In this document: positions 19,008-29,138 of the stretch, one piece after another | Layout: every line of letters begins with the position of its first letter | Numbering within the stretch: position 1 is the stretch's first letter | From: a virus | Lineage: Duplodnaviria; Heunggongvirae; Uroviricota; Caudoviricetes | Length of the DNA stretch: 30,664 bases | Strand: one strand, 5' to 3' | Virus record (IMG/VR): IMGVR_UViG_2802429251_000007 | Location: 1 to 30,664 of that record | Position numbers and translations under genes: made by a program | The notes under the pieces: generated by a model | The model's database searches: none | What the model saw: the letters and a program-made list of their open reading frames with translations, nothing else | Told to the model about the DNA's origin: nothing

Positions 19008-20985
19008 AACTATTAAAGATTTCCTCGTCTCGCTTGGCTTCAGTGTGGATGATGCAGGAGCGAAAAAGTTCGGTTCTGTCCTCGCCGGTACAACGGCAAA
19101 TGTCATCAAAATGGGGCTGGCCGTTGAAGGAGCCGCGCTGTCCGTGGTGGCCTTCACGGCTAAGATCGCCTCCGGTCTGGATAATCTTTACTGGGCGTCA
19201 CAGCGCACCGGCGCGACAGTCCAGGGAATTCAGTCTATTGGCTATGCGGTTTCGCAGGTTGGCGGCAGCGTGGACGCTGCGCGATCTTCTCTGGAAAACC
19301 TCTCCCGGTTTATTCGTAATAATCCCGGGGCGGAGGGATTTCTGAATCGCCTGGGCGTACAGACCCGTGATGCCAGCGGTAACATGCGTGACATGGCCGC
19401 TATCTTTACGGGCGTTGGACAGAAACTCAGCAGCATGCCGTATTACCGGGCTAACCAGTATGCGCAGATGCTGGGCATTGACGAAAATACCCTTATGGCG
19501 ATGCGCCGGGGTGTGGGTGGCTTCTCCGGGCAGTACAGCGCAATGGCGAAAGCTATCGGCTTCAATGCTGACGAGGCGGCCAGAAGCTCCAACAAATTTA
19601 TGACCTCCTTGCGTGAGTTTAGCGCGATGGCAGGCATGGCCCGTGACAAAATCGGCTCTAATCTTGCGGGTGGGCTTGCAGGTTCGCTGGACACCCTGCG
19701 CCGCCATATCCTGGACAACTTCCCTCGTATCGAGCAGACCCTGACGAAAGCCATAAAAGGCATTCTGGCGCTCGGGGATATTATCGGGCGGCTGTTCTTC
19801 AGACTGATTGAGGGGACATCAGGCCTTATCACCTGGTGGCAATCGCTGGATAAGCAAACGCGGGAGTTGATCTCGCTGTTTGGCGCACTGACGATTGCGC
19901 TGCGCATTCTGAACAGTACGTTCTGGATGTCGCCGGTTGGCCTCATTACCGCGCTGGCGGCGGGGATTGCCCTCCTGTGGGAGGACTATCAGACCTGGAA
20001 GGAAGGCGGCGACAGCCTGATTGACTGGGGCAAGTGGAAACCGGAGGTCGATGCCGCGCTGAAGATGGTTCGTGACCTTAAAACGACCGTTAACGATCTG
20101 GCGAAAGCGCTGGCGAAACTACTCAATATTGACCCCAAATCATGGTCCCTGAAGTGGGATTTCAGCAACTTCATCGACCAGATGGGCGAATTCAGCAAAA
20201 TGCTGAACATGATCGCCGACCTGCTCAACGCTATCAAAGATGGACGCTGGGCTGATGCCGTCAGCATCGGCAAACAGATACTTAATCAGGGCAGCGAAAA
20301 TCCGTCAGCGATGCCGATGGTTACAGACAGCGCTAACAGTACTGCCGACTGGATTAAAGAGCACTGGGGATTCGATCCCCGCAGTGTGGGCCGGACGGTA
20401 CGCGGCTGGTTTGGTGATGATGAGCCGGAACAACATGCACAGGCTACGAAACGAGGAGAACGGAATAACAATCCGGGAAACCTTAATTTTGCTGGTCAGG
20501 CGGGGGCTTCTCTTGAACACCCGGGCGGGCGATTTGCCAGATTTGAAACTGCCTTTGATGGATTACGGGCTCTTGCTCGTCAGTTAATGTTGTACGCCGG
20601 GCGAGGAATAAACAGTGTGGAAAAAATTATCTCTACCTGGGCACCTGCCTCTGATAATAACAACACAACTGCGTATATCAGGGCTGTATCGCAACGACTG
20701 GGAGTGGATCCCCGGGCTGCCCTGAATATGAGCGATCCGAAAACCATGTCAGCATTGATGAGCAGCATTATCCAGCATGAAAATGGAAGAAATATCTATT
20801 CTCGAGAGCTGATTAATAAGGCTGCCGTGGCGGGAATTAGTGGCAAAATGACAGAGGTTAACCAGCAAAATACCTACCACATTTACGGTGGCGGAGATCC
20901 GCACGCTGTCGGTAATGAGGTTGCACGTCGGCAACAGTCTGCAAATGCTCAGGTTATGCGAAGTAATCAGGTGAGGGTGGGTTAG
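18997..20985 (+). CDS. tail tape measure protein
   Basis: 662 aa; hydrophobic TM-like central segments; follows chaperone; ATG 18997 with GGAGAGAGG upstream (ORF-track start 18976 is TTG). Confidence 0.8.
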   Translation: MNAETIKDFLVSLGFSVDDAGAKKFGSVLAGTTANVIKMGLAVEGAALSVVAFTAKIASGLDNLYWASQRTGATVQGIQSIGYAVSQVGGSVDAARSSLENLSRFIRNNPGAEGFLNRLGVQTRDASGNMRDMAAIFTGVGQKLSSMPYYRANQYAQMLGIDENTLMAMRRGVGGFSGQYSAMAKAIGFNADEAARSSNKFMTSLREFSAMAGMARDKIGSNLAGGLAGSLDTLRRHILDNFPRIEQTLTKAIKGILALGDIIGRLFFRLIEGTSGLITWWQSLDKQTRELISLFGALTIALRILNSTFWMSPVGLITALAAGIALLWEDYQTWKEGGDSLIDWGKWKPEVDAALKMVRDLKTTVNDLAKALAKLLNIDPKSWSLKWDFSNFIDQMGEFSKMLNMIADLLNAIKDGRWADAVSIGKQILNQGSENPSAMPMVTDSANSTADWIKEHWGFDPRSVGRTVRGWFGDDEPEQHAQATKRGERNNNPGNLNFAGQAGASLEHPGGRFARFETAFDGLRALARQLMLYAGRGINSVEKIISTWAPASDNNNTTAYIRAVSQRLGVDPRAALNMSDPKTMSALMSSIIQHENGRNIYSRELINKAAVAGISGKMTEVNQQNTYHIYGGGDPHAVGNEVARRQQSANAQVMRSNQVRVG

Positions 20986-21876: not shown

Positions 21877-22941
21877 ATGTCACAGAACTGGATGAGACAT
21901 TTCGAGCTGCAGCTTGTGGACGGGAACGGTCAGGGAATTGAGCTAAGTGATTTCAAAGTCACCTTTACGATCGACTGGTTCAACATCAGCAGCGCGTCCC
22001 GGGTAGGGACTATCAAAATTTATAACCTCTCGGCAGATACTGTGAACCGAATCACTGGGAAGGAATTTTCGAAAGTGCGGCTGATTGCCGGTTACGACGG
22101 TATCGCGCCGGAGGTGGCGGCAAGCGACGTCGGGACCGTGCGCGAAGTCGACGCGGCGGACGTGGGCCAGACAGATGGCCGCAACTACGGACTGATTTTC
22201 AGCGGTGAAATTCGCTACTCGGTCACAGGAAAAGACAGTCCGGTTGATACCTACGTCCTGATTCAGGCAGCAGATACTGATCTGGCATTTGCCACCAGTA
22301 TAACCTCACAGACGCTGGCTGCCGGTTACACGGTCGCAGATGTGAACCGTGCGCTGATGAAAGACTTTGAGGCCAAAGGCGCGACCGAAGGACTGACGCC
22401 TGAAATGCCTGCTACCGTATACCCTCGAGGGCGGGTGCTGTTCGGCATGACACGGCATCTTATGGATAACGTGGCCGGACAATGTGGCGCAACATGGCAA
22501 TTTGTGGACGGTCAGCGCCAGATGGTGGCGAATAACGAGTATGTTCACGACGCGATTGTGCTCAACAGCGCCACCGGGCTTATCGGCATGCCGCAGCAGA
22601 CTATCGGCAACGGTGTAAACGTCCGCGCTCTTATTAATCCGAACATCCGGGTTAACGGGCTTATTCAGCTGGATCAGGCTTCCGTGTACCGCACCGCGCT
22701 GTCGAACAATGATATTGCGATGGCTGGTGGGCAGATCACCGACCAGAACACGGACGGAAATATCACGCTAAGCGGCACCACATCGCAGCCTGCCAGCATC
22801 GCAACGGATGGCGTTTATATTGTGCGCGGGATTATGTACACTGGCGACACAAGGGGCCAGGCGTGGTACATGGATATGATGTGCTTTGCTCGAGGTGCTA
22901 GTGATATTCCTAGCCAGTCAGCGATGAATCGAGGTGCATAA
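21877..22941 (+). CDS. putative baseplate hub protein
   Basis: 354 aa; position between tape measure and spike-like gene; GGAG RBS. Confidence 0.4.
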   Translation: MSQNWMRHFELQLVDGNGQGIELSDFKVTFTIDWFNISSASRVGTIKIYNLSADTVNRITGKEFSKVRLIAGYDGIAPEVAASDVGTVREVDAADVGQTDGRNYGLIFSGEIRYSVTGKDSPVDTYVLIQAADTDLAFATSITSQTLAAGYTVADVNRALMKDFEAKGATEGLTPEMPATVYPRGRVLFGMTRHLMDNVAGQCGATWQFVDGQRQMVANNEYVHDAIVLNSATGLIGMPQQTIGNGVNVRALINPNIRVNGLIQLDQASVYRTALSNNDIAMAGGQITDQNTDGNITLSGTTSQPASIATDGVYIVRGIMYTGDTRGQAWYMDMMCFARGASDIPSQSAMNRGA

Positions 22942-22943
22942 TA

Positions 22944-23669
22944 GTGAGCAGGCTTGCGATAACCACAATCGTATTTTCTCTTTTTTTAACTTCATGTAGT
23001 TGGGATCCTAATGGTGCTAAAGCGCAGGGAAAATGGCTATCCCAAAAAAATGAAGAAAAACAAGCGTACGATAAGCAAGTTGAGGAGAGCCAGAAAAGCA
23101 GGCTTCAAATACAGCGCGAAGAAAAGTCTCAATTTGAAGTTTCACATCCAGAGGTTATCGTTGCTGGTGTTGGGAACGAGCTTAAAAGTAAGGGTGCAGA
23201 ATCTTTGCGAGATGCGTACAACAGCATTCCATTCGTAACTCGTTATCCGGGAACCACGGACCCTAACAAAGTTTATACCTATGTCGGTGACTACAAATTA
23301 AATTTGCAACTGGTTAACACATCTGTGCTTTCTCAGATCTCAGATTGCAAACGCATTTCAGCGTATGCCGATGTTGATATTAATCGTACTTGCTTCAATC
23401 AAATTGGAAATGATTTGAGTTTGTTTGCATCTGTAATTAAAGACAAAAATATTACTGGAATTGCAAAAAAAGCAGCTCTACGAGATTCAACTTACGGAAC
23501 TAAAATTGATTTTGGTCATGCTGCGCGTTTAGCAAAAATGCATGCCACTTTATGCCAAAAGCAGGGCGGTAAAGGATTTGTCAAAATGTCGACTGTAGCT
23601 GTGCCTTGCGGCTCTTCAGGCGATGTAATTAACTATCGAAGCGCCGGTAAGATGGGGCTTATAAACTGA
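22944..23669 (+). CDS. lipoprotein (241 aa), moron-like accessory gene
   Basis: Signal peptide plus lipobox LFLTSC, +2 Ser; GTG start with GAGGTG upstream; visibly AT-rich versus flanking genes; own terminator downstream. Confidence 0.6.
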   Translation: MSRLAITTIVFSLFLTSCSWDPNGAKAQGKWLSQKNEEKQAYDKQVEESQKSRLQIQREEKSQFEVSHPEVIVAGVGNELKSKGAESLRDAYNSIPFVTRYPGTTDPNKVYTYVGDYKLNLQLVNTSVLSQISDCKRISAYADVDINRTCFNQIGNDLSLFASVIKDKNITGIAKKAALRDSTYGTKIDFGHAARLAKMHATLCQKQGGKGFVKMSTVAVPCGSSGDVINYRSAGKMGLIN

Positions 23670-23691
23670 AAAGATCAAATTAGTCACATAA

Positions 23692-23716
23692 AACCCGCCG
23701 GATGGCGGGTTTTTTG
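23692..23716 (+). terminator. intrinsic terminator after lipoprotein gene
   Basis: CCCGCC-GGAT-GGCGGG hairpin followed by TTTTTT. Confidence 0.7.
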
Positions 23717-23734
23717 CTTTCTGGAGCCTACTAA

Positions 23735-24487
23735 ATGGCAGTATCTGACCAGACCCGCAGCGGCGACCTTGCCGAAACATTTAAATCTGAACGGGAAACA
23801 ACAAAGAACCAGATCCGTGTCGCCTTGCCAGGCATTGTTCAGTCATTCGCTCCTGATGCGGTGACGGCGGTTGTACAGCCTGCTATCCGTTACGTTGAAA
23901 TTGATAACGACGGCAACCGCATTACCAAAAATTACCCATTGCTGGTGGATGTGCCAGTGGTATTCCCGCGTGGCGGAGGCTGTACGCTAACGTTTCCAGT
24001 TAAAGCCGGTGATGAATGCCTGGTGATTTTTGCCGATCGTTGTATTGATTTCTGGTGGCAGAGTGGCGGGATACAGGAGCCGGTCGATGACCGGGTGCAT
24101 GATTTATCGGATGCTTTCTGTATCGTCGGGCCGCAGTCTCAGGCGCAGAAAATAAGCGGAATAAGCACCAGTGGCGCGCAGCTGCGTAGTGACGACGGCA
24201 GCACCTATTTTGAGCTTAATCCTGATACCAGGAAAATTAAAATTGTCGCTCCGGGTGGTCTTGATGTGGTTGCCCCTCTGGCTGATTTTTCTGAGAAAGT
24301 AACCATTCATGGCCTGTTAACCTGGATGGGGGGCATGGTGGGGTCTGTTGTTTCTGGTGTGGCTTCAAAAATCACTGGTGCTGTTGAGTTTTTGGGTAGC
24401 GTGAAGGCTAACGGCAAGCTAATCGATGATACGCACACTCATGGTGGTGTTCAGCGCGGTGGAAGCAATACCGACGGAGTAAACTGA
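23735..24487 (+). CDS. putative baseplate spike/assembly protein V-like
   Basis: 250 aa, position; GGAG RBS. Confidence 0.45.
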   Translation: MAVSDQTRSGDLAETFKSERETTKNQIRVALPGIVQSFAPDAVTAVVQPAIRYVEIDNDGNRITKNYPLLVDVPVVFPRGGGCTLTFPVKAGDECLVIFADRCIDFWWQSGGIQEPVDDRVHDLSDAFCIVGPQSQAQKISGISTSGAQLRSDDGSTYFELNPDTRKIKIVAPGGLDVVAPLADFSEKVTIHGLLTWMGGMVGSVVSGVASKITGAVEFLGSVKANGKLIDDTHTHGGVQRGGSNTDGVN

Positions 24488-28370: not shown

Positions 28371-28379
28371 AAAGAAAAA

Positions 28380-28406
28380 GCCATCGATAGAAATATCGAT
28401 GGCTTT
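28380..28406. terminator. bidirectional hairpin between convergent Tfa and acetyltransferase genes
   Basis: GCCATCGATA-GAAA-TATCGATGGC with T-rich flanks on both strands. Confidence 0.6.
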
Positions 28407-28413
28407 ATGTGCT

Positions 28414-28986
28414 CTATTTATACAATACAACACCGCTCTTTTTAGTTATATATGTGCAGTTCGATGGTATATCTTTATTTATAAAAGACATTGCGCCTAT
28501 TTTTACATTATCCCCAATTTTACGTGATAATCCAATGATGCAACAATTAGCTCCGATATCAACGTTACTACCAATTTTTACTCTTGAACCAGGTATGTCA
28601 CCATCTATCTGTCCAATCGTAGTATTCTGTCGTAACACCAGATTTTCACCAGCATCAACAGCAAAATGAACAACAATTCCAGCGTGATGGGGAATTGTTA
28701 GCCCTTTTCCAATTTTTGCTCCCAGTCCAATCTCGCAACCAAATTTGTTAATTATTTTATTGTTTAACTTTTTAGCAGCTTTCTTATGTAATTTATTACC
28801 ATTAATATACATTTCGTTAGCCAGCCGCCACCAGAAAAGGAAATTCCTGTTACGTTGTTTTTTTTCTCTGAAAAGCCTCCAGATATCCATATACTCCCGC
28901 CGTATTACTTCAGATTTCCAAAAGCTTTTTAAATCAGAAGAATTCCCAAGTAAAACAAAATGAATTGCTATTAAGTAAGATAACAC
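28414..28986 (-). CDS. hexapeptide-repeat acetyltransferase (CysE/WcaB-like)
   Basis: IGLGAKIGKGLTIPHHAGIVV...IGQIDGD...KIGSNVDIGANCCIIG hexapeptide repeats; GTG start with AAGGAG 6 nt upstream; visibly AT-rich. Confidence 0.7.
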   Translation of the reverse strand: MLSYLIAIHFVLLGNSSDLKSFWKSEVIRREYMDIWRLFREKKQRNRNFLFWWRLANEMYINGNKLHKKAAKKLNNKIINKFGCEIGLGAKIGKGLTIPHHAGIVVHFAVDAGENLVLRQNTTIGQIDGDIPGSRVKIGSNVDIGANCCIIGLSRKIGDNVKIGAMSFINKDIPSNCTYITKKSGVVLYK

Positions 28987-29138
28987 GATAATCTCCTTAA
29001 TTATTACTTTCGACCATATTAGCCCTAAATTTAATGAAGTGTAAAATCTGGTTGTTTGTTATTTAAAAGCTAAGTTCGTGATACTTTACGGATGCTGAGG
29101 AGAGCATTATACGATATTTTTCTGCACACTCATAGTAA

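What the first reader, a model, noticed from the sequence alone, without database searches (positions are those of the whole stretch)
22944..23716. AT-rich lipoprotein moron with its own terminator inside the baseplate gene cluster
Between the hub-like gene and the spike-like gene sits a 241-aa ORF with a lipoprotein signal (lipobox LFLTSC, +2 Ser suggesting outer-membrane sorting), a Lys/Glu/Gln-rich linker and a Cys-containing C-terminal domain I cannot assign to any family. It is visibly more AT-rich than its neighbours and is followed by a strong intrinsic terminator (23692-23716), the classic moron signature. Lipoproteins at this position in other phages act in superinfection exclusion (receptor blocking) or lysogenic conversion, but this one is much larger than the small Llp/Cor-type proteins. 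This is my best candidate for an undescribed prophage-encoded function in the window.
Basis: partly seen in the sequence, partly recalled or inferred. Interest (0 to 1): 0.78.

Follow-up and report, generated by a model that had tools for sequence, protein, structure and literature searches.

The report
Variable exported lipoprotein beside phage baseplate hub
A prophage tail-gene cluster carries a real but rare gene for an outer-membrane-type lipoprotein of unknown fold, sitting in a swap-prone slot that in every related phage holds some exported protein; it probably blocks entry of other phages, but that has not been tested.

Summary
ORF 22944-23669 (241 aa) has a lipobox (LTSC, Ser at +2). 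It encodes a 46-residue charged helix and a four-cysteine globular domain. Its GC is 0.41 (GC3 0.335) against 0.51-0.55 for its neighbours. A strong hairpin plus T-run lies at 23690-23715.

The "self-contained moron" reading is only partly right:
- The terminator is not the gene's own. It is a backbone element just before the spike gene in nearly all relatives, whatever the cargo.
- No sigma-70 promoter is found. The GTG start lies 2 nt after the hub stop.
- In about 45 distinct related loci, the gene right after the hub always encodes an exported protein. It is this family, a shorter soluble homolog, or the unrelated STY1065 type.
- Optional defence-type cargo can follow (PDC-M18, YafO).

The family is tiny: 34 clusters among 1.84 billion representatives, all Enterobacterales. 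It has no Pfam, NCBIfam, PADLOC or PDB match by sequence or fold. It occurs in 12 of 5426 E. coli genomes. It is under purifying selection, was exchanged recently, and is not linked to the tail-fibre type.

Best guess (about 0.4): a periplasm-acting superinfection-exclusion factor held at a fixed distance from the outer membrane.

The parts
22944..23669 (+). Gene for a 241-aa prelipoprotein. This is the 'slot 1' gene of the hub-spike variable region.
   Evidence: ORF. Homologs at 40-99% identity sit at the same position. dN/dS is 0.13-0.17. GC 0.408, GC3 0.335.
22944..22997 (+). Signal peptide with lipobox LTSC. Cys18 is the predicted lipidated residue. Ser at +2 predicts outer-membrane sorting by the Asp+2 rule.
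   Evidence: Sequence. A lipobox is present in almost all family members and none has Asp at +2.
23007..23144 (+). K/E/Q-rich linker, residues 22-67, predicted as one uninterrupted helix. It is a candidate rigid spacer.
   Evidence: AF2 model helix H22-67, block pLDDT 87-94 over residues 31-70, lower (65) at the N-terminal end. The Cys-to-HPEV distance is 50 +/- 1 residues in 24 of 28 short-form homologs despite sequence divergence.
23145..23666 (+). Globular alpha/beta domain, residues 68-241. Conserved motifs are HPEV, N-x3-FVTR, C135-x-R-x-SAY-x8-C150, F-x-HAARLA-x-MH (H192, H200), C204 and C222.
22931..22936 (+). Shine-Dalgarno sequence GAGGTG for the lipoprotein gene. It lies inside the hub coding sequence, 7 nt before the GTG. 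The hub stop TAA is at 22939-22941.
   Evidence: Read from the sequence. The gap between the hub stop and the slot-1 start is -9 to +12 nt in all related loci.
22880..22941 (+). Left junction of the exchangeable cassette. The last ~20 codons of the hub gene travel with the slot-1 allele type.
   Evidence: Alignment A4. Hub C-terminal tails are tabulated against slot-1 type. The association is frequent but not strict.
23690..23715 (+). Intrinsic-terminator hairpin plus T-run. It is the right boundary of the cassette and a conserved backbone element 20 nt upstream of the spike start codon.
   Evidence: -18.9 kcal/mol, z = -3.66. It is present with unrelated cargo and shows compensatory stem variants: CCCACC/GGTGGG, CCTCGCC/GGCGAGG, CCCGTC/GACGGG.
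21877..22941 (+). Baseplate hub gene (upstream flank).
   Evidence: phrog_196 E 3.7e-88 and PF22759 E 2e-5.
23735..24487 (+). Membrane-puncturing spike gene (downstream flank). Its Shine-Dalgarno sequence GGAG is at 23723-23726.
   Evidence: PF18352 E 1.3e-42 plus Apex motif. Sequence.
2579..3385 (+). Q-like late antiterminator of the same prophage. It would let late transcripts read through the hairpin.
   Evidence: DUF1133 E 5e-106. The Phage_antitermQ match is weak, E 1.4e-5, just below the family cut-off. The role is an inference.

Best explanation
**What it is (well supported).** The gene is the 'slot 1' occupant of a recombination-prone variable region. That region lies between the baseplate hub and spike genes of a SEN34/Brunovirus-like temperate myovirus prophage of E. 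coli. It encodes a prelipoprotein that is exported, lipidated at Cys18 and, by the +2 rule, sent to the inner leaflet of the outer membrane. A helix of about 46 residues (about 7 nm), whose length is conserved, holds a disulfide-bonded globular domain of unrecognised fold in the periplasm. The domain would sit roughly at the depth of the peptidoglycan layer. The gene is translationally coupled to the hub gene, so it is made at least with the late tail operon. The hairpin after it belongs to the slot. It would stop any transcription that is not Q-antiterminated before it reaches the spike gene.

**What it does (inferred, not shown).** It acts as a superinfection-exclusion factor at the periplasmic stage of entry. 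The tethered domain would meet or obstruct the tip of an incoming contractile tail after adsorption. That tip comprises the spike and a tape-measure protein carrying a peptidoglycan-hydrolase domain. Alternatively, the domain would act on the wall at that point. Either way, DNA would not reach the cytoplasm. In logic this resembles T4 Spackle, TP-J34 Ltp and HK97 gp15 rather than the receptor-masking proteins Llp and Cor.
For: **Export**
- A lipobox is conserved in almost all homologs, and none has Asp at +2.
- The cysteines occur as two pairs, C135/C150 and C204/C222. The second pair is lost together in P0034. This is consistent with periplasmic disulfides.

**Accessory nature and exchange**
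- The gene is in 12 of 5426 E. coli genomes. The hub and spike backbone is in 350.
- dS of the gene is 0.006-0.013. dS of the flanking hub is 0.18-0.19 and of the spike 0.15-0.32.
- Alleles are swapped on near-identical backbones: in L021 the hub is 90% identical but the lipoprotein only 48%.

**Hotspot context**
- The same slot carries the PADLOC candidate system PDC-M18A/B (E 1e-130 and 1e-72) and a YafO toxin module in other loci.
- A distant family member sits in an integrase plus primase (satellite-like) element with no tail genes nearby.

**The target is in the periplasm, not a surface receptor**
- Homologs of the core domain exist as soluble proteins with signal-peptidase-I signals and as long-form lipoproteins.
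- The identical allele accompanies at least four different tail-fibre genes.

**Spacer**
- The Cys-to-domain distance is 50 +/- 1 residues in 24 of 28 short-form homologs. The sequence varies but stays 43-59% charged or Gln.
- The helix is predicted with block pLDDT of 87-94 over residues 31-70.

**A possible target exists**
- The tape-measure C-terminus matches the PDB chains 7q47_A 'Endolysin' (E 2e-13) and 9vvp_L (E 2e-20).

**Precedents**
- HK97 gp15, a moron inside a tail operon that blocks genome entry (PMC3594210).
- Ltp, built as lipid anchor, spacer and active domain, and reported to target the tape-measure protein (PMC3952083).
- T4 Spackle, a periplasmic inhibitor of the tail lysozyme (PMC7677548).

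**Read-through of the terminator**
- The prophage encodes a Q-like antiterminator.
Against: - No experiment and no homology link the protein to exclusion.
- No promoter is detectable. The gene is coupled to a late gene, so expression in the lysogen, which classical exclusion needs, is unproven.
- Slot 1 is occupied in every relative examined. This looks more like a function the phage itself needs than an optional host benefit.
- The conserved His192 and His200 and other polar residues could mark an enzyme or a metal site rather than a binding surface.
- The allele shows no obvious co-variation with the spike or the tape-measure C-terminus. The same 99% allele occurs with spike at 70% or 95% identity, and with tape-measure C-terminus at 82% or 98%.
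- Purifying selection (omega 0.13-0.17) gives no sign of an arms race at the whole-gene level.
Confidence: 0.4

Rival explanations
1. Late-phase function for the phage itself. The lipoprotein, like the other slot-1 exported proteins, is made with the tail genes shortly before lysis. It would condition the envelope so that released virions are not wasted on the lysing cell and its debris, or so that lysis and release proceed properly. This is the second role proposed for T5 Llp.
For: - The gene is tightly coupled to the hub gene in all loci, with a gap of -9 to +12 nt.
- No promoter is found.
- Slot 1 is never empty in about 45 distinct loci. Unrelated exported families substitute for one another there.
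- In E. coli the STY1065 type is in 288 genomes, this gene in 12 and the short homolog in 12.
Against: - Protection from debris by receptor masking should follow the receptor-binding protein, and it does not.
- The phage already has a full lysis cassette: two holin-family genes, an M15 endolysin and a small lipobox protein likely to be a spanin.
- Family members also occur in a satellite-like element without tail genes.
Confidence: 0.2
2. Lysogenic-conversion factor unrelated to phages. It would be an outer-membrane lipoprotein that changes host envelope properties such as serum resistance, adhesion or stress tolerance, as lambda Bor or Lom do.
For: - It has an outer-membrane lipoprotein signature and foreign composition.
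- It lies in a hotspot inside a prophage of human and animal E. coli isolates.
- Envelope morons of this kind are known (PMC3594210).
Against: - The family is confined to phage or satellite contexts. It is found in 3 of 100,044 species representatives and 34 clusters among 1.84 billion.
- It always sits next to tail-tip genes, across genera.
- Soluble periplasmic homologs argue against a surface-exposed role.
- No promoter is detected for lysogenic expression.
Confidence: 0.12
3. Periplasmic enzyme or ligand-binding protein that modifies peptidoglycan or another envelope polymer. Any phage resistance would be a consequence of that modification rather than of direct binding to a tail.
For: - Polar residues are conserved family-wide on one helix (H192, H200), with Y141, K175 and R195 also conserved.
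- The fixed-length spacer would place the domain at the depth of the wall. The depth is my inference from the role of Lpp (PMC5736177).
Against: - There is no similarity to any enzyme family or fold.
- R195 is not kept in register in the distant clade.
Confidence: 0.12
4. A structural or assembly component of the baseplate that merely looks foreign.
For: It has a fixed position between hub and spike in all carriers.
Against: - The signal peptide and lipobox send it out of the cytoplasm, where tails assemble.
- It is absent from about 96% of otherwise near-identical prophages. There it is replaced by an unrelated 113-aa exported protein (hhalign probability 0.5%).
Confidence: 0.02

Closest known systems
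HK97 gp15 moron (superinfection exclusion from inside a tail operon)
   Same: Both are accessory envelope proteins encoded in the middle of a tail-gene operon of a temperate coliphage. Both have foreign composition. gp15 is proposed to block genome entry after adsorption, without masking the receptor (PMC3594210).
   Different: gp15 is a small inner-membrane protein of the YebO family. It has its own promoter and terminator. The present gene is a 241-aa lipoprotein with no promoter found and with a terminator shared by the whole slot. There is no sequence relationship.
Ltp of Streptococcus thermophilus phage TP-J34
   Same: Both have a three-part build: lipid anchor, spacer and active domain. 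Ltp excludes by acting on the incoming tail (tape-measure protein), not on the receptor (PMC3952083).
   Different: Ltp is Gram-positive and has a serine-rich flexible spacer and helix-turn-helix-like repeat domains. Here the spacer is a rigid charged helix of conserved length and the domain has a different, unmatched fold. PDB sequence and fold searches returned nothing.
T4 Spackle (Sp)
   Same: Spackle is an exported periplasmic phage protein that neutralises the peptidoglycan hydrolase at the tip of a contractile tail (PMC7677548). The tape-measure protein of this phage also ends in an endolysin-like domain.
   Different: Spackle is a 97-aa soluble early protein of a virulent phage. The only Pfam T4_Spackle hit (P0014, E 0.031, 15.3 bits against a cut-off of 27) lies on the signal peptide and linker and is chance.
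T5 Llp / phi80-T1 Cor receptor-blocking lipoproteins
   Same: Both are phage-encoded outer-membrane lipoproteins encoded within tail or receptor-binding gene regions (PMC9586334 listed; PMC3594210).
   Different: Llp and Cor are small. They are functionally matched to the receptor-binding protein and its outer-membrane receptor. This protein is three to four times larger. Its identical allele occurs with at least four different fibre genes. It also has soluble periplasmic homologs.
P2 Z/fun and P2/P4 defence hotspots
   Same: Both are fixed positions between conserved phage genes, partly in tail modules. Diverse accessory and defence genes are exchanged there (bioRxiv 10.1101/2024.10.15.618418; 10.1101/2021.01.21.427644 listed). 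Here the second position of the slot carries PDC-M18 and YafO modules.
   Different: This hotspot is in a different phage lineage, between hub and spike. It has an obligatory first position for an exported protein, coupled to the hub gene. It ends at a conserved terminator. I found no description of it in the library searched.

Membership tests
Bacterial lipoproteins (Lgt/LspA/Lnt substrates) | N-terminal signal peptide ending in a lipobox [LVI][ASTVI][GAS]C | tested here: met
   The N-terminus is MSRLAITTIVFSLFLTSC, with L-T-S-C at residues 15-18. A lipobox is kept in nearly all homologs.
Bacterial lipoproteins (Lgt/LspA/Lnt substrates) | Actual lipidation and outer-membrane localisation (no Asp at +2) | not testable with these tools
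   Residue +2 is Ser, and no family member has Asp at +2. Localisation itself needs fractionation or globomycin and palmitate labelling.
Moron (Juhala/Hendrix sense; PMC3594210) | Extra DNA present in some but not other closely related phages, with deviating base composition | tested here: met
   The gene is in 12 of about 350 backbone carriers. GC is 0.41 against 0.51-0.55 and GC3 is 0.335. The same dip is seen in all loci.
Moron (Juhala/Hendrix sense; PMC3594210) | Own promoter allowing expression from the repressed prophage | tested here: not met
   No + strand sigma-70-like site is found between 14000 and 28500. The start codon is 2 nt after the hub stop. The consensus scan is weak evidence, so transcript mapping is needed.
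Moron (Juhala/Hendrix sense; PMC3594210) | Own terminator | tested here: not met
   A strong terminator follows the gene. However, it is a conserved backbone element before the spike gene in loci with any cargo.
Llp/Cor-type receptor-blocking exclusion lipoproteins | Small lipoprotein functionally paired with the phage's receptor-binding protein | tested here: not met
   The protein is 241 aa. The identical or 98-99% identical allele is linked to several unrelated fibre C-termini and fibre genes.
T4 Spackle (PF25676) | Match to the family profile over the helical core | tested here: not met
   The window protein has no hit. One homolog hits at E 0.031 and 15.3 bits (cut-off 27), but only on its signal peptide and linker.
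Known anti-phage defence proteins (PADLOC-DB 2.0) | Match to any defence-system profile | tested here: not met
   There are 0 families at E <= 10.
Baseplate structural proteins of E217/SEN34-like myoviruses | Cytoplasmic protein conserved at this position in all relatives | tested here: not met
   It is an exported lipoprotein. In most relatives it is replaced by the unrelated STY1065-type protein.
Superinfection-exclusion proteins in general (functional class) | Expression protects the cell against entry of other phages | not testable with these tools
   This needs plating, adsorption and DNA-entry assays. The evidence gathered here is only contextual.

The most novel reading that the evidence does not exclude
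The hub-spike region of SEN34-like temperate myoviruses has a fixed first position for an exported protein. That protein would work as an immunity-like partner of the phage's own tail tip, much as periplasmic immunity proteins sit next to vgrG in type VI secretion loci. The lipoprotein family found here would be a new fold. A length-conserved helical 'ruler' would place it at the peptidoglycan layer. There it would intercept the peptidoglycan hydrolase or the channel-forming tip of incoming contractile tails. This would be a new, lineage-wide class of entry-blocking proteins with interchangeable alleles (this family, its soluble homologs, and STY1065).
Probability: 0.2. Interest if true: 0.75.

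Novelty: new variant of a known kind. Interest (0 to 1): 0.5.

Why it matters
- **If the exclusion reading is right.** This would add a new protein fold and a new geometry to the few entry-blocking mechanisms understood in Gram-negative hosts. The geometry is a domain tethered to the outer membrane and positioned by a ruler at the depth of the cell wall.
- **For prophage annotation.** The slot architecture explains a recurrent and so far unnamed feature of a prophage lineage present in about 6% of complete E. coli genomes. The architecture is an obligatory exported protein, then optional defence cargo, then a conserved terminator. The second position of the slot is a practical place to look for new defence systems.
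- **For phage therapy.** Such factors decide which phages can enter lysogens.
- **If the late-function rival is right.** It would instead point to an unrecognised periplasmic step in the release or economy of contractile-tailed temperate phages.

Tried and rejected
- **Family searches on the window protein.** Pfam, NCBIfam and PADLOC gave nothing. PHROGs gave only two families of unknown function at E 0.008-0.05.
- **Per-member scans of 20 homologs.** They gave only scattered chance hits at E 0.02-0.2. These include T4_Spackle, which I rejected because it aligns to the signal peptide and linker.
- **PDB by sequence.** The single-sequence search gave nothing. The profile search gave only a designed helical repeat (6e9z, E 4.5e-4 on the Ala-rich helix) and low-complexity matches.
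- **Phage-record searches.** blastn and tblastn of the gene against 50,697 phage records found no match. The long form P0021 also found none. Only the distant P0042 found Hafnia phage yong1.
- **Relationship to the STY1065 family.** Rejected (hhalign probability 0.5%).
- **PGAP names.** 'HMG-box domain-containing protein' for this gene and 'thioredoxin domain-containing protein' for the gp25-like gene are treated as spurious. Nothing in Pfam supports them.
- **Spanin role.** Rejected, because the lysis cassette has its own small lipobox protein.
- **Overlapping ORFs.** ORF 23011-23238 (+, 75 aa, K/R-rich) and ORF 23616-23780 (-) are treated as frame artefacts of an A-rich coding region and of the terminator.
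- **Literature.** Searches for SEN34, STY1065/STY2022, the WP accession, and baseplate hotspots or morons found no description of this slot or protein.
- **Hub tail against slot-1 type.** A strict rule linking the hub C-terminal tail to the slot-1 type was looked for and not found. L032 and L066 are exceptions.
Full report
**1. The observation**

The ORF at 22944-23669 (+, GTG start, 241 aa) is there. Its N-terminus MSRLAITTIVFSLFLTSC-S is a textbook lipoprotein signal: lipobox L-T-S-C, Cys18, Ser at +2.

An AlphaFold2 model built on 14 homologs has mean pLDDT 85.6 and pTM 0.72. It shows:
- a disordered signal peptide;
- a single unbroken helix spanning residues 22-67, the K/E/Q-rich stretch;
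- a compact alpha/beta domain from residue 68 to 241.

The gene has GC 0.408 and GC3 0.335. Fifteen other genes of the same phage have GC 0.47-0.55 and GC3 0.41-0.63. It also has the lowest codon-adaptation value of the set.

The hairpin AAAACCCGCC-GGAT-GGCGGGTTTT plus T-run at 23690-23715 folds at -18.9 kcal/mol (z = -3.66). It is the best terminator-like site in the whole structural module.

The flanks are a baseplate hub (phrog_196, E 3.7e-88) and a membrane-puncturing spike (PF18352, E 1.3e-42, plus Apex motif).

The gene is real. Homologs at 40-99% identity keep the frame and motifs. dN/dS against the 77%-identical alleles is 0.13-0.17.

**2. The phage**

The window is a prophage of the SEN34/Brunovirus-like temperate myoviruses. 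Its gene content is:
- terminase, portal, capsid;
- E217-like sheath and phiTE-like tube;
- tape measure, Dit-like protein, plug and hub;
- the lipoprotein gene under study;
- spike, sheath initiator, baseplate J, wedge, fibre and fibre-assembly protein.

It also has a Q-like antiterminator (2579-3385) and a complete lysis cassette.

The tape-measure protein ends in a domain matching a solved endolysin (7q47_A, E 2e-13; 9vvp_L, E 2e-20). The tail tip therefore carries a peptidoglycan hydrolase.

**3. The slot**

The hub and spike flanks occur in 350 of 5426 complete E. coli genomes. Only 12 of these carry this gene, and all 12 copies are at least 99% identical.

In the other genomes the interval holds different genes. 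Across about 45 distinct loci from E. coli genomes, phage records, IMG/VR and assemblies, the pattern is regular.

- **First position.** The first gene after the hub starts -9 to +12 nt from the hub stop. It always encodes an exported protein. This is one of three types:
  - the present lipoprotein family, as short forms of about 240 aa or long forms of about 375 aa;
  - a roughly 154-aa soluble periplasmic protein with a signal-peptidase-I signal, which is a remote homolog of the same core (hhalign probability 98.7%, E 3e-16);
  - the unrelated 111-113-aa STY1065/STY2022 type (hhalign probability 0.5%).
- **Second position (optional).** It has its own upstream gap and carries cytoplasmic cargo:
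  - the PADLOC candidate system PDC-M18A/B (E 1e-130 and 1e-72);
  - a YafO-toxin module;
  - several two-gene modules of unknown function.
- **End of the interval.** It closes with a GC-rich hairpin plus T-run about 20 nt before the spike start codon.

In E. coli the first-position census is STY1065 type 288 genomes, this lipoprotein 12, and the short homolog 12.

**4. The terminator is the slot's, not the gene's**

Homology between cassettes with unrelated cargo resumes exactly at the hairpin (alignment A5).

The hairpin is kept throughout the lineage with compensatory stem variants: CCCGCC/GGCGGG, CCCACC/GGTGGG, CCTCGCC/GGCGAGG and CCCGTC/GACGGG. A CCCGC-UUCG-GCGGG tetraloop version also occurs.

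At the left end, the last ~20 codons of the hub gene tend to travel with the slot-1 type (A4). The association is not strict.

No + strand sigma-70-like promoter is found anywhere between 14000 and 28500. The GTG lies 7 nt after a GAGGTG inside the hub gene.

By sequence, then, the lipoprotein is a translationally coupled late gene. The 'promoter plus own terminator' criteria for a moron (PMC3594210) are not met. The 'extra DNA of foreign composition' criterion is met.

With a Q-type antiterminator present, late transcripts could pass the hairpin. Other transcripts would stop before the spike gene. This is my inference.

**5. Evolution**

Between the window and two other E. coli carriers:
- dS of the lipoprotein gene is 0.006-0.013;
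- dS of the hub is 0.18-0.19;
- dS of the spike is 0.15-0.32.

The cassette has therefore moved recently between diverged backbones, with crossovers close to its ends.

Elsewhere the opposite is seen. In L021 the hub is 90% identical but the lipoprotein only 48%.

The identical or 98-99% identical allele is found with several unrelated tail-fibre C-termini. It occurs with at least four different fibre genes and integration sites. It is also found with two spike types (L015).

**6. The family**

- A word-indexed search of 5.8 billion proteins found 14 clusters.
- An exhaustive HMM search of 1.84 billion representatives found 34.
- A scan of one genome per species found it in 3 of 100,044: an Enterobacterales MAG, Serratia sp. 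PL17 and Limnobaculum allomyrinae.
- Almost all members have a lipobox.
- In a more divergent lineage, long forms sit one gene earlier, between plug and hub (L044-L047).
- One clade of 356-aa lipoproteins lies in an integrase plus Toprim/DUF927-primase element without tail genes nearby. That is an accessory position of a satellite-like element.

Family-wide conserved features are the Cys135...Cys150 pair with the SAY motif, and a helix carrying H192 and H200.

In 24 of 28 short-form lipoproteins, the distance from the lipidated Cys to the HPEV motif that opens the domain is 50 +/- 1 residues. The linker sequence diverges but stays 43-59% E/K/Q/R/D.

**7. No known relative**

Pfam, NCBIfam, PADLOC and PDB sequence searches are empty or at chance level.

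**8. Interpretation**

*Shown*
- It is an exported, lipobox-bearing accessory protein of a rare family with an unmatched fold.
- It occupies a fixed, always-filled, allele-swapping position next to the tail-tip genes.
- It is coupled to a late gene.
- It is independent of fibre type.
- It has soluble periplasmic homologs.
- It has neighbours that are defence candidates.

*Inferred*
- A helix of 46 residues is about 7 nm long. That is slightly shorter than the Lpp helix that ties the outer membrane to the wall (PMC5736177).
- The domain would therefore sit at about the depth of the peptidoglycan.
- That is where the tip of an incoming contractile tail, with its wall hydrolase, must work.

I therefore favour a periplasm-stage entry block. 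In logic it is analogous to T4 Spackle (PMC7677548), TP-J34 Ltp (PMC3952083) and HK97 gp15 (PMC3594210).

Confidence is about 0.4, for three reasons:
- lysogenic expression is unproven;
- the slot is never empty, which suits a function for the phage itself;
- the conserved histidines could indicate an enzyme.

The rivals are listed with their tests. They are a late-phase function protecting progeny or aiding release, host conversion, an envelope-modifying enzyme, and a structural role (essentially excluded).

**9. Verdict**

The 'self-contained moron with its own terminator' picture needs correcting. The gene is the variable first member of a structured hotspot whose terminator belongs to the backbone.

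Novelty: a new variant of a known kind. It is a phage accessory envelope protein in a tail-module hotspot, but the family, the fold and the slot architecture are not described in the library I could search.

Interest is moderate (0.5). It would be higher if the ruler-positioned, tail-tip-directed exclusion mechanism were demonstrated.

Noticed in passing
window 28377-29045, - strand: A 190-aa ORF (28414-28986, -) has a weak hexapeptide-transferase match. It has a promoter-like site just upstream (29045-29016) and a 13-bp-stem terminator just downstream (28406-28377). It lies between the fibre-assembly gene and the prophage end. It fits the 'own promoter plus own terminator' moron pattern better than the finding does, and could be an acetyltransferase-type conversion gene.
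   Followed up: partly
window 3924-4427: An IS1 transposase ORF lies inside the prophage, shortly downstream of the Q-like antiterminator gene (2579-3385). It may affect late-gene expression of this copy of the prophage.
   Followed up: no
window 5918-7203: The lysis cassette has two holin-family genes (Phage_holin_8 at 5918-6361, Phage_holin_3_7 at 6297-6626) and an M15 peptidase endolysin (6623-7006). An overlapping 84-aa ORF (6949-7203) with lipobox LLVGC is a likely spanin lipoprotein.
   Followed up: partly
window 20398-20982: The C-terminal ~190 residues of the tape-measure protein match a solved endolysin (7q47_A, E 2e-13) and Gp29 of 9vvp (E 2e-20). Pfam did not detect this domain.
   Followed up: partly
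L030/L031 8980-10532: In two IMG/VR relatives, the lipoprotein homolog is followed in the same slot by the two-gene PADLOC candidate defence system PDC-M18A/B (E 1e-130 and 1e-72). The shared terminator follows.
   Followed up: yes
L053 4962-13514 (also L048, L052, L054-L056, L061): An element with an integrase, a second integrase-like gene and a Zn-ribbon/Toprim/DUF927 primase carries a 356-aa distant member of the lipoprotein family. In L053 it lies directly after the portal and DUF2213 head genes of a prophage related to the window.
   Followed up: partly
L042 (Salmonella phage SEN34) 2450-2791; L041 (Hafnia phage yong1) 3088-3564: The deposited annotations start the slot-1 genes too late. 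Reading from the first start codon after the hub stop gives full-length proteins with signal peptides (113 aa in SEN34, 158 aa in yong1).
   Followed up: yes
L001 4068-4793 and 5611-5964 (RefSeq annotation of NZ_AP042480.1): PGAP names the lipoprotein 'HMG-box domain-containing protein' and the gp25-like sheath initiator 'thioredoxin domain-containing protein'. Neither name is supported by the Pfam scans here, so both look like misnomers.
   Followed up: partly
window 23735-24487 and related loci: The spike gene exists in at least two allele classes about 70% identical. They are exchanged on otherwise 90-98% identical backbones (for example L015, L020, L021, L051, L064), independently of the slot-1 allele.
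   Followed up: partly
window 23011-23238 (+) and 23616-23780 (-): A 75-aa K/R-rich ORF lies in another frame inside the lipoprotein gene. A 54-aa antisense ORF lies across the terminator. Both look like artefacts of the A-rich coding sequence and were not pursued.
   Followed up: no
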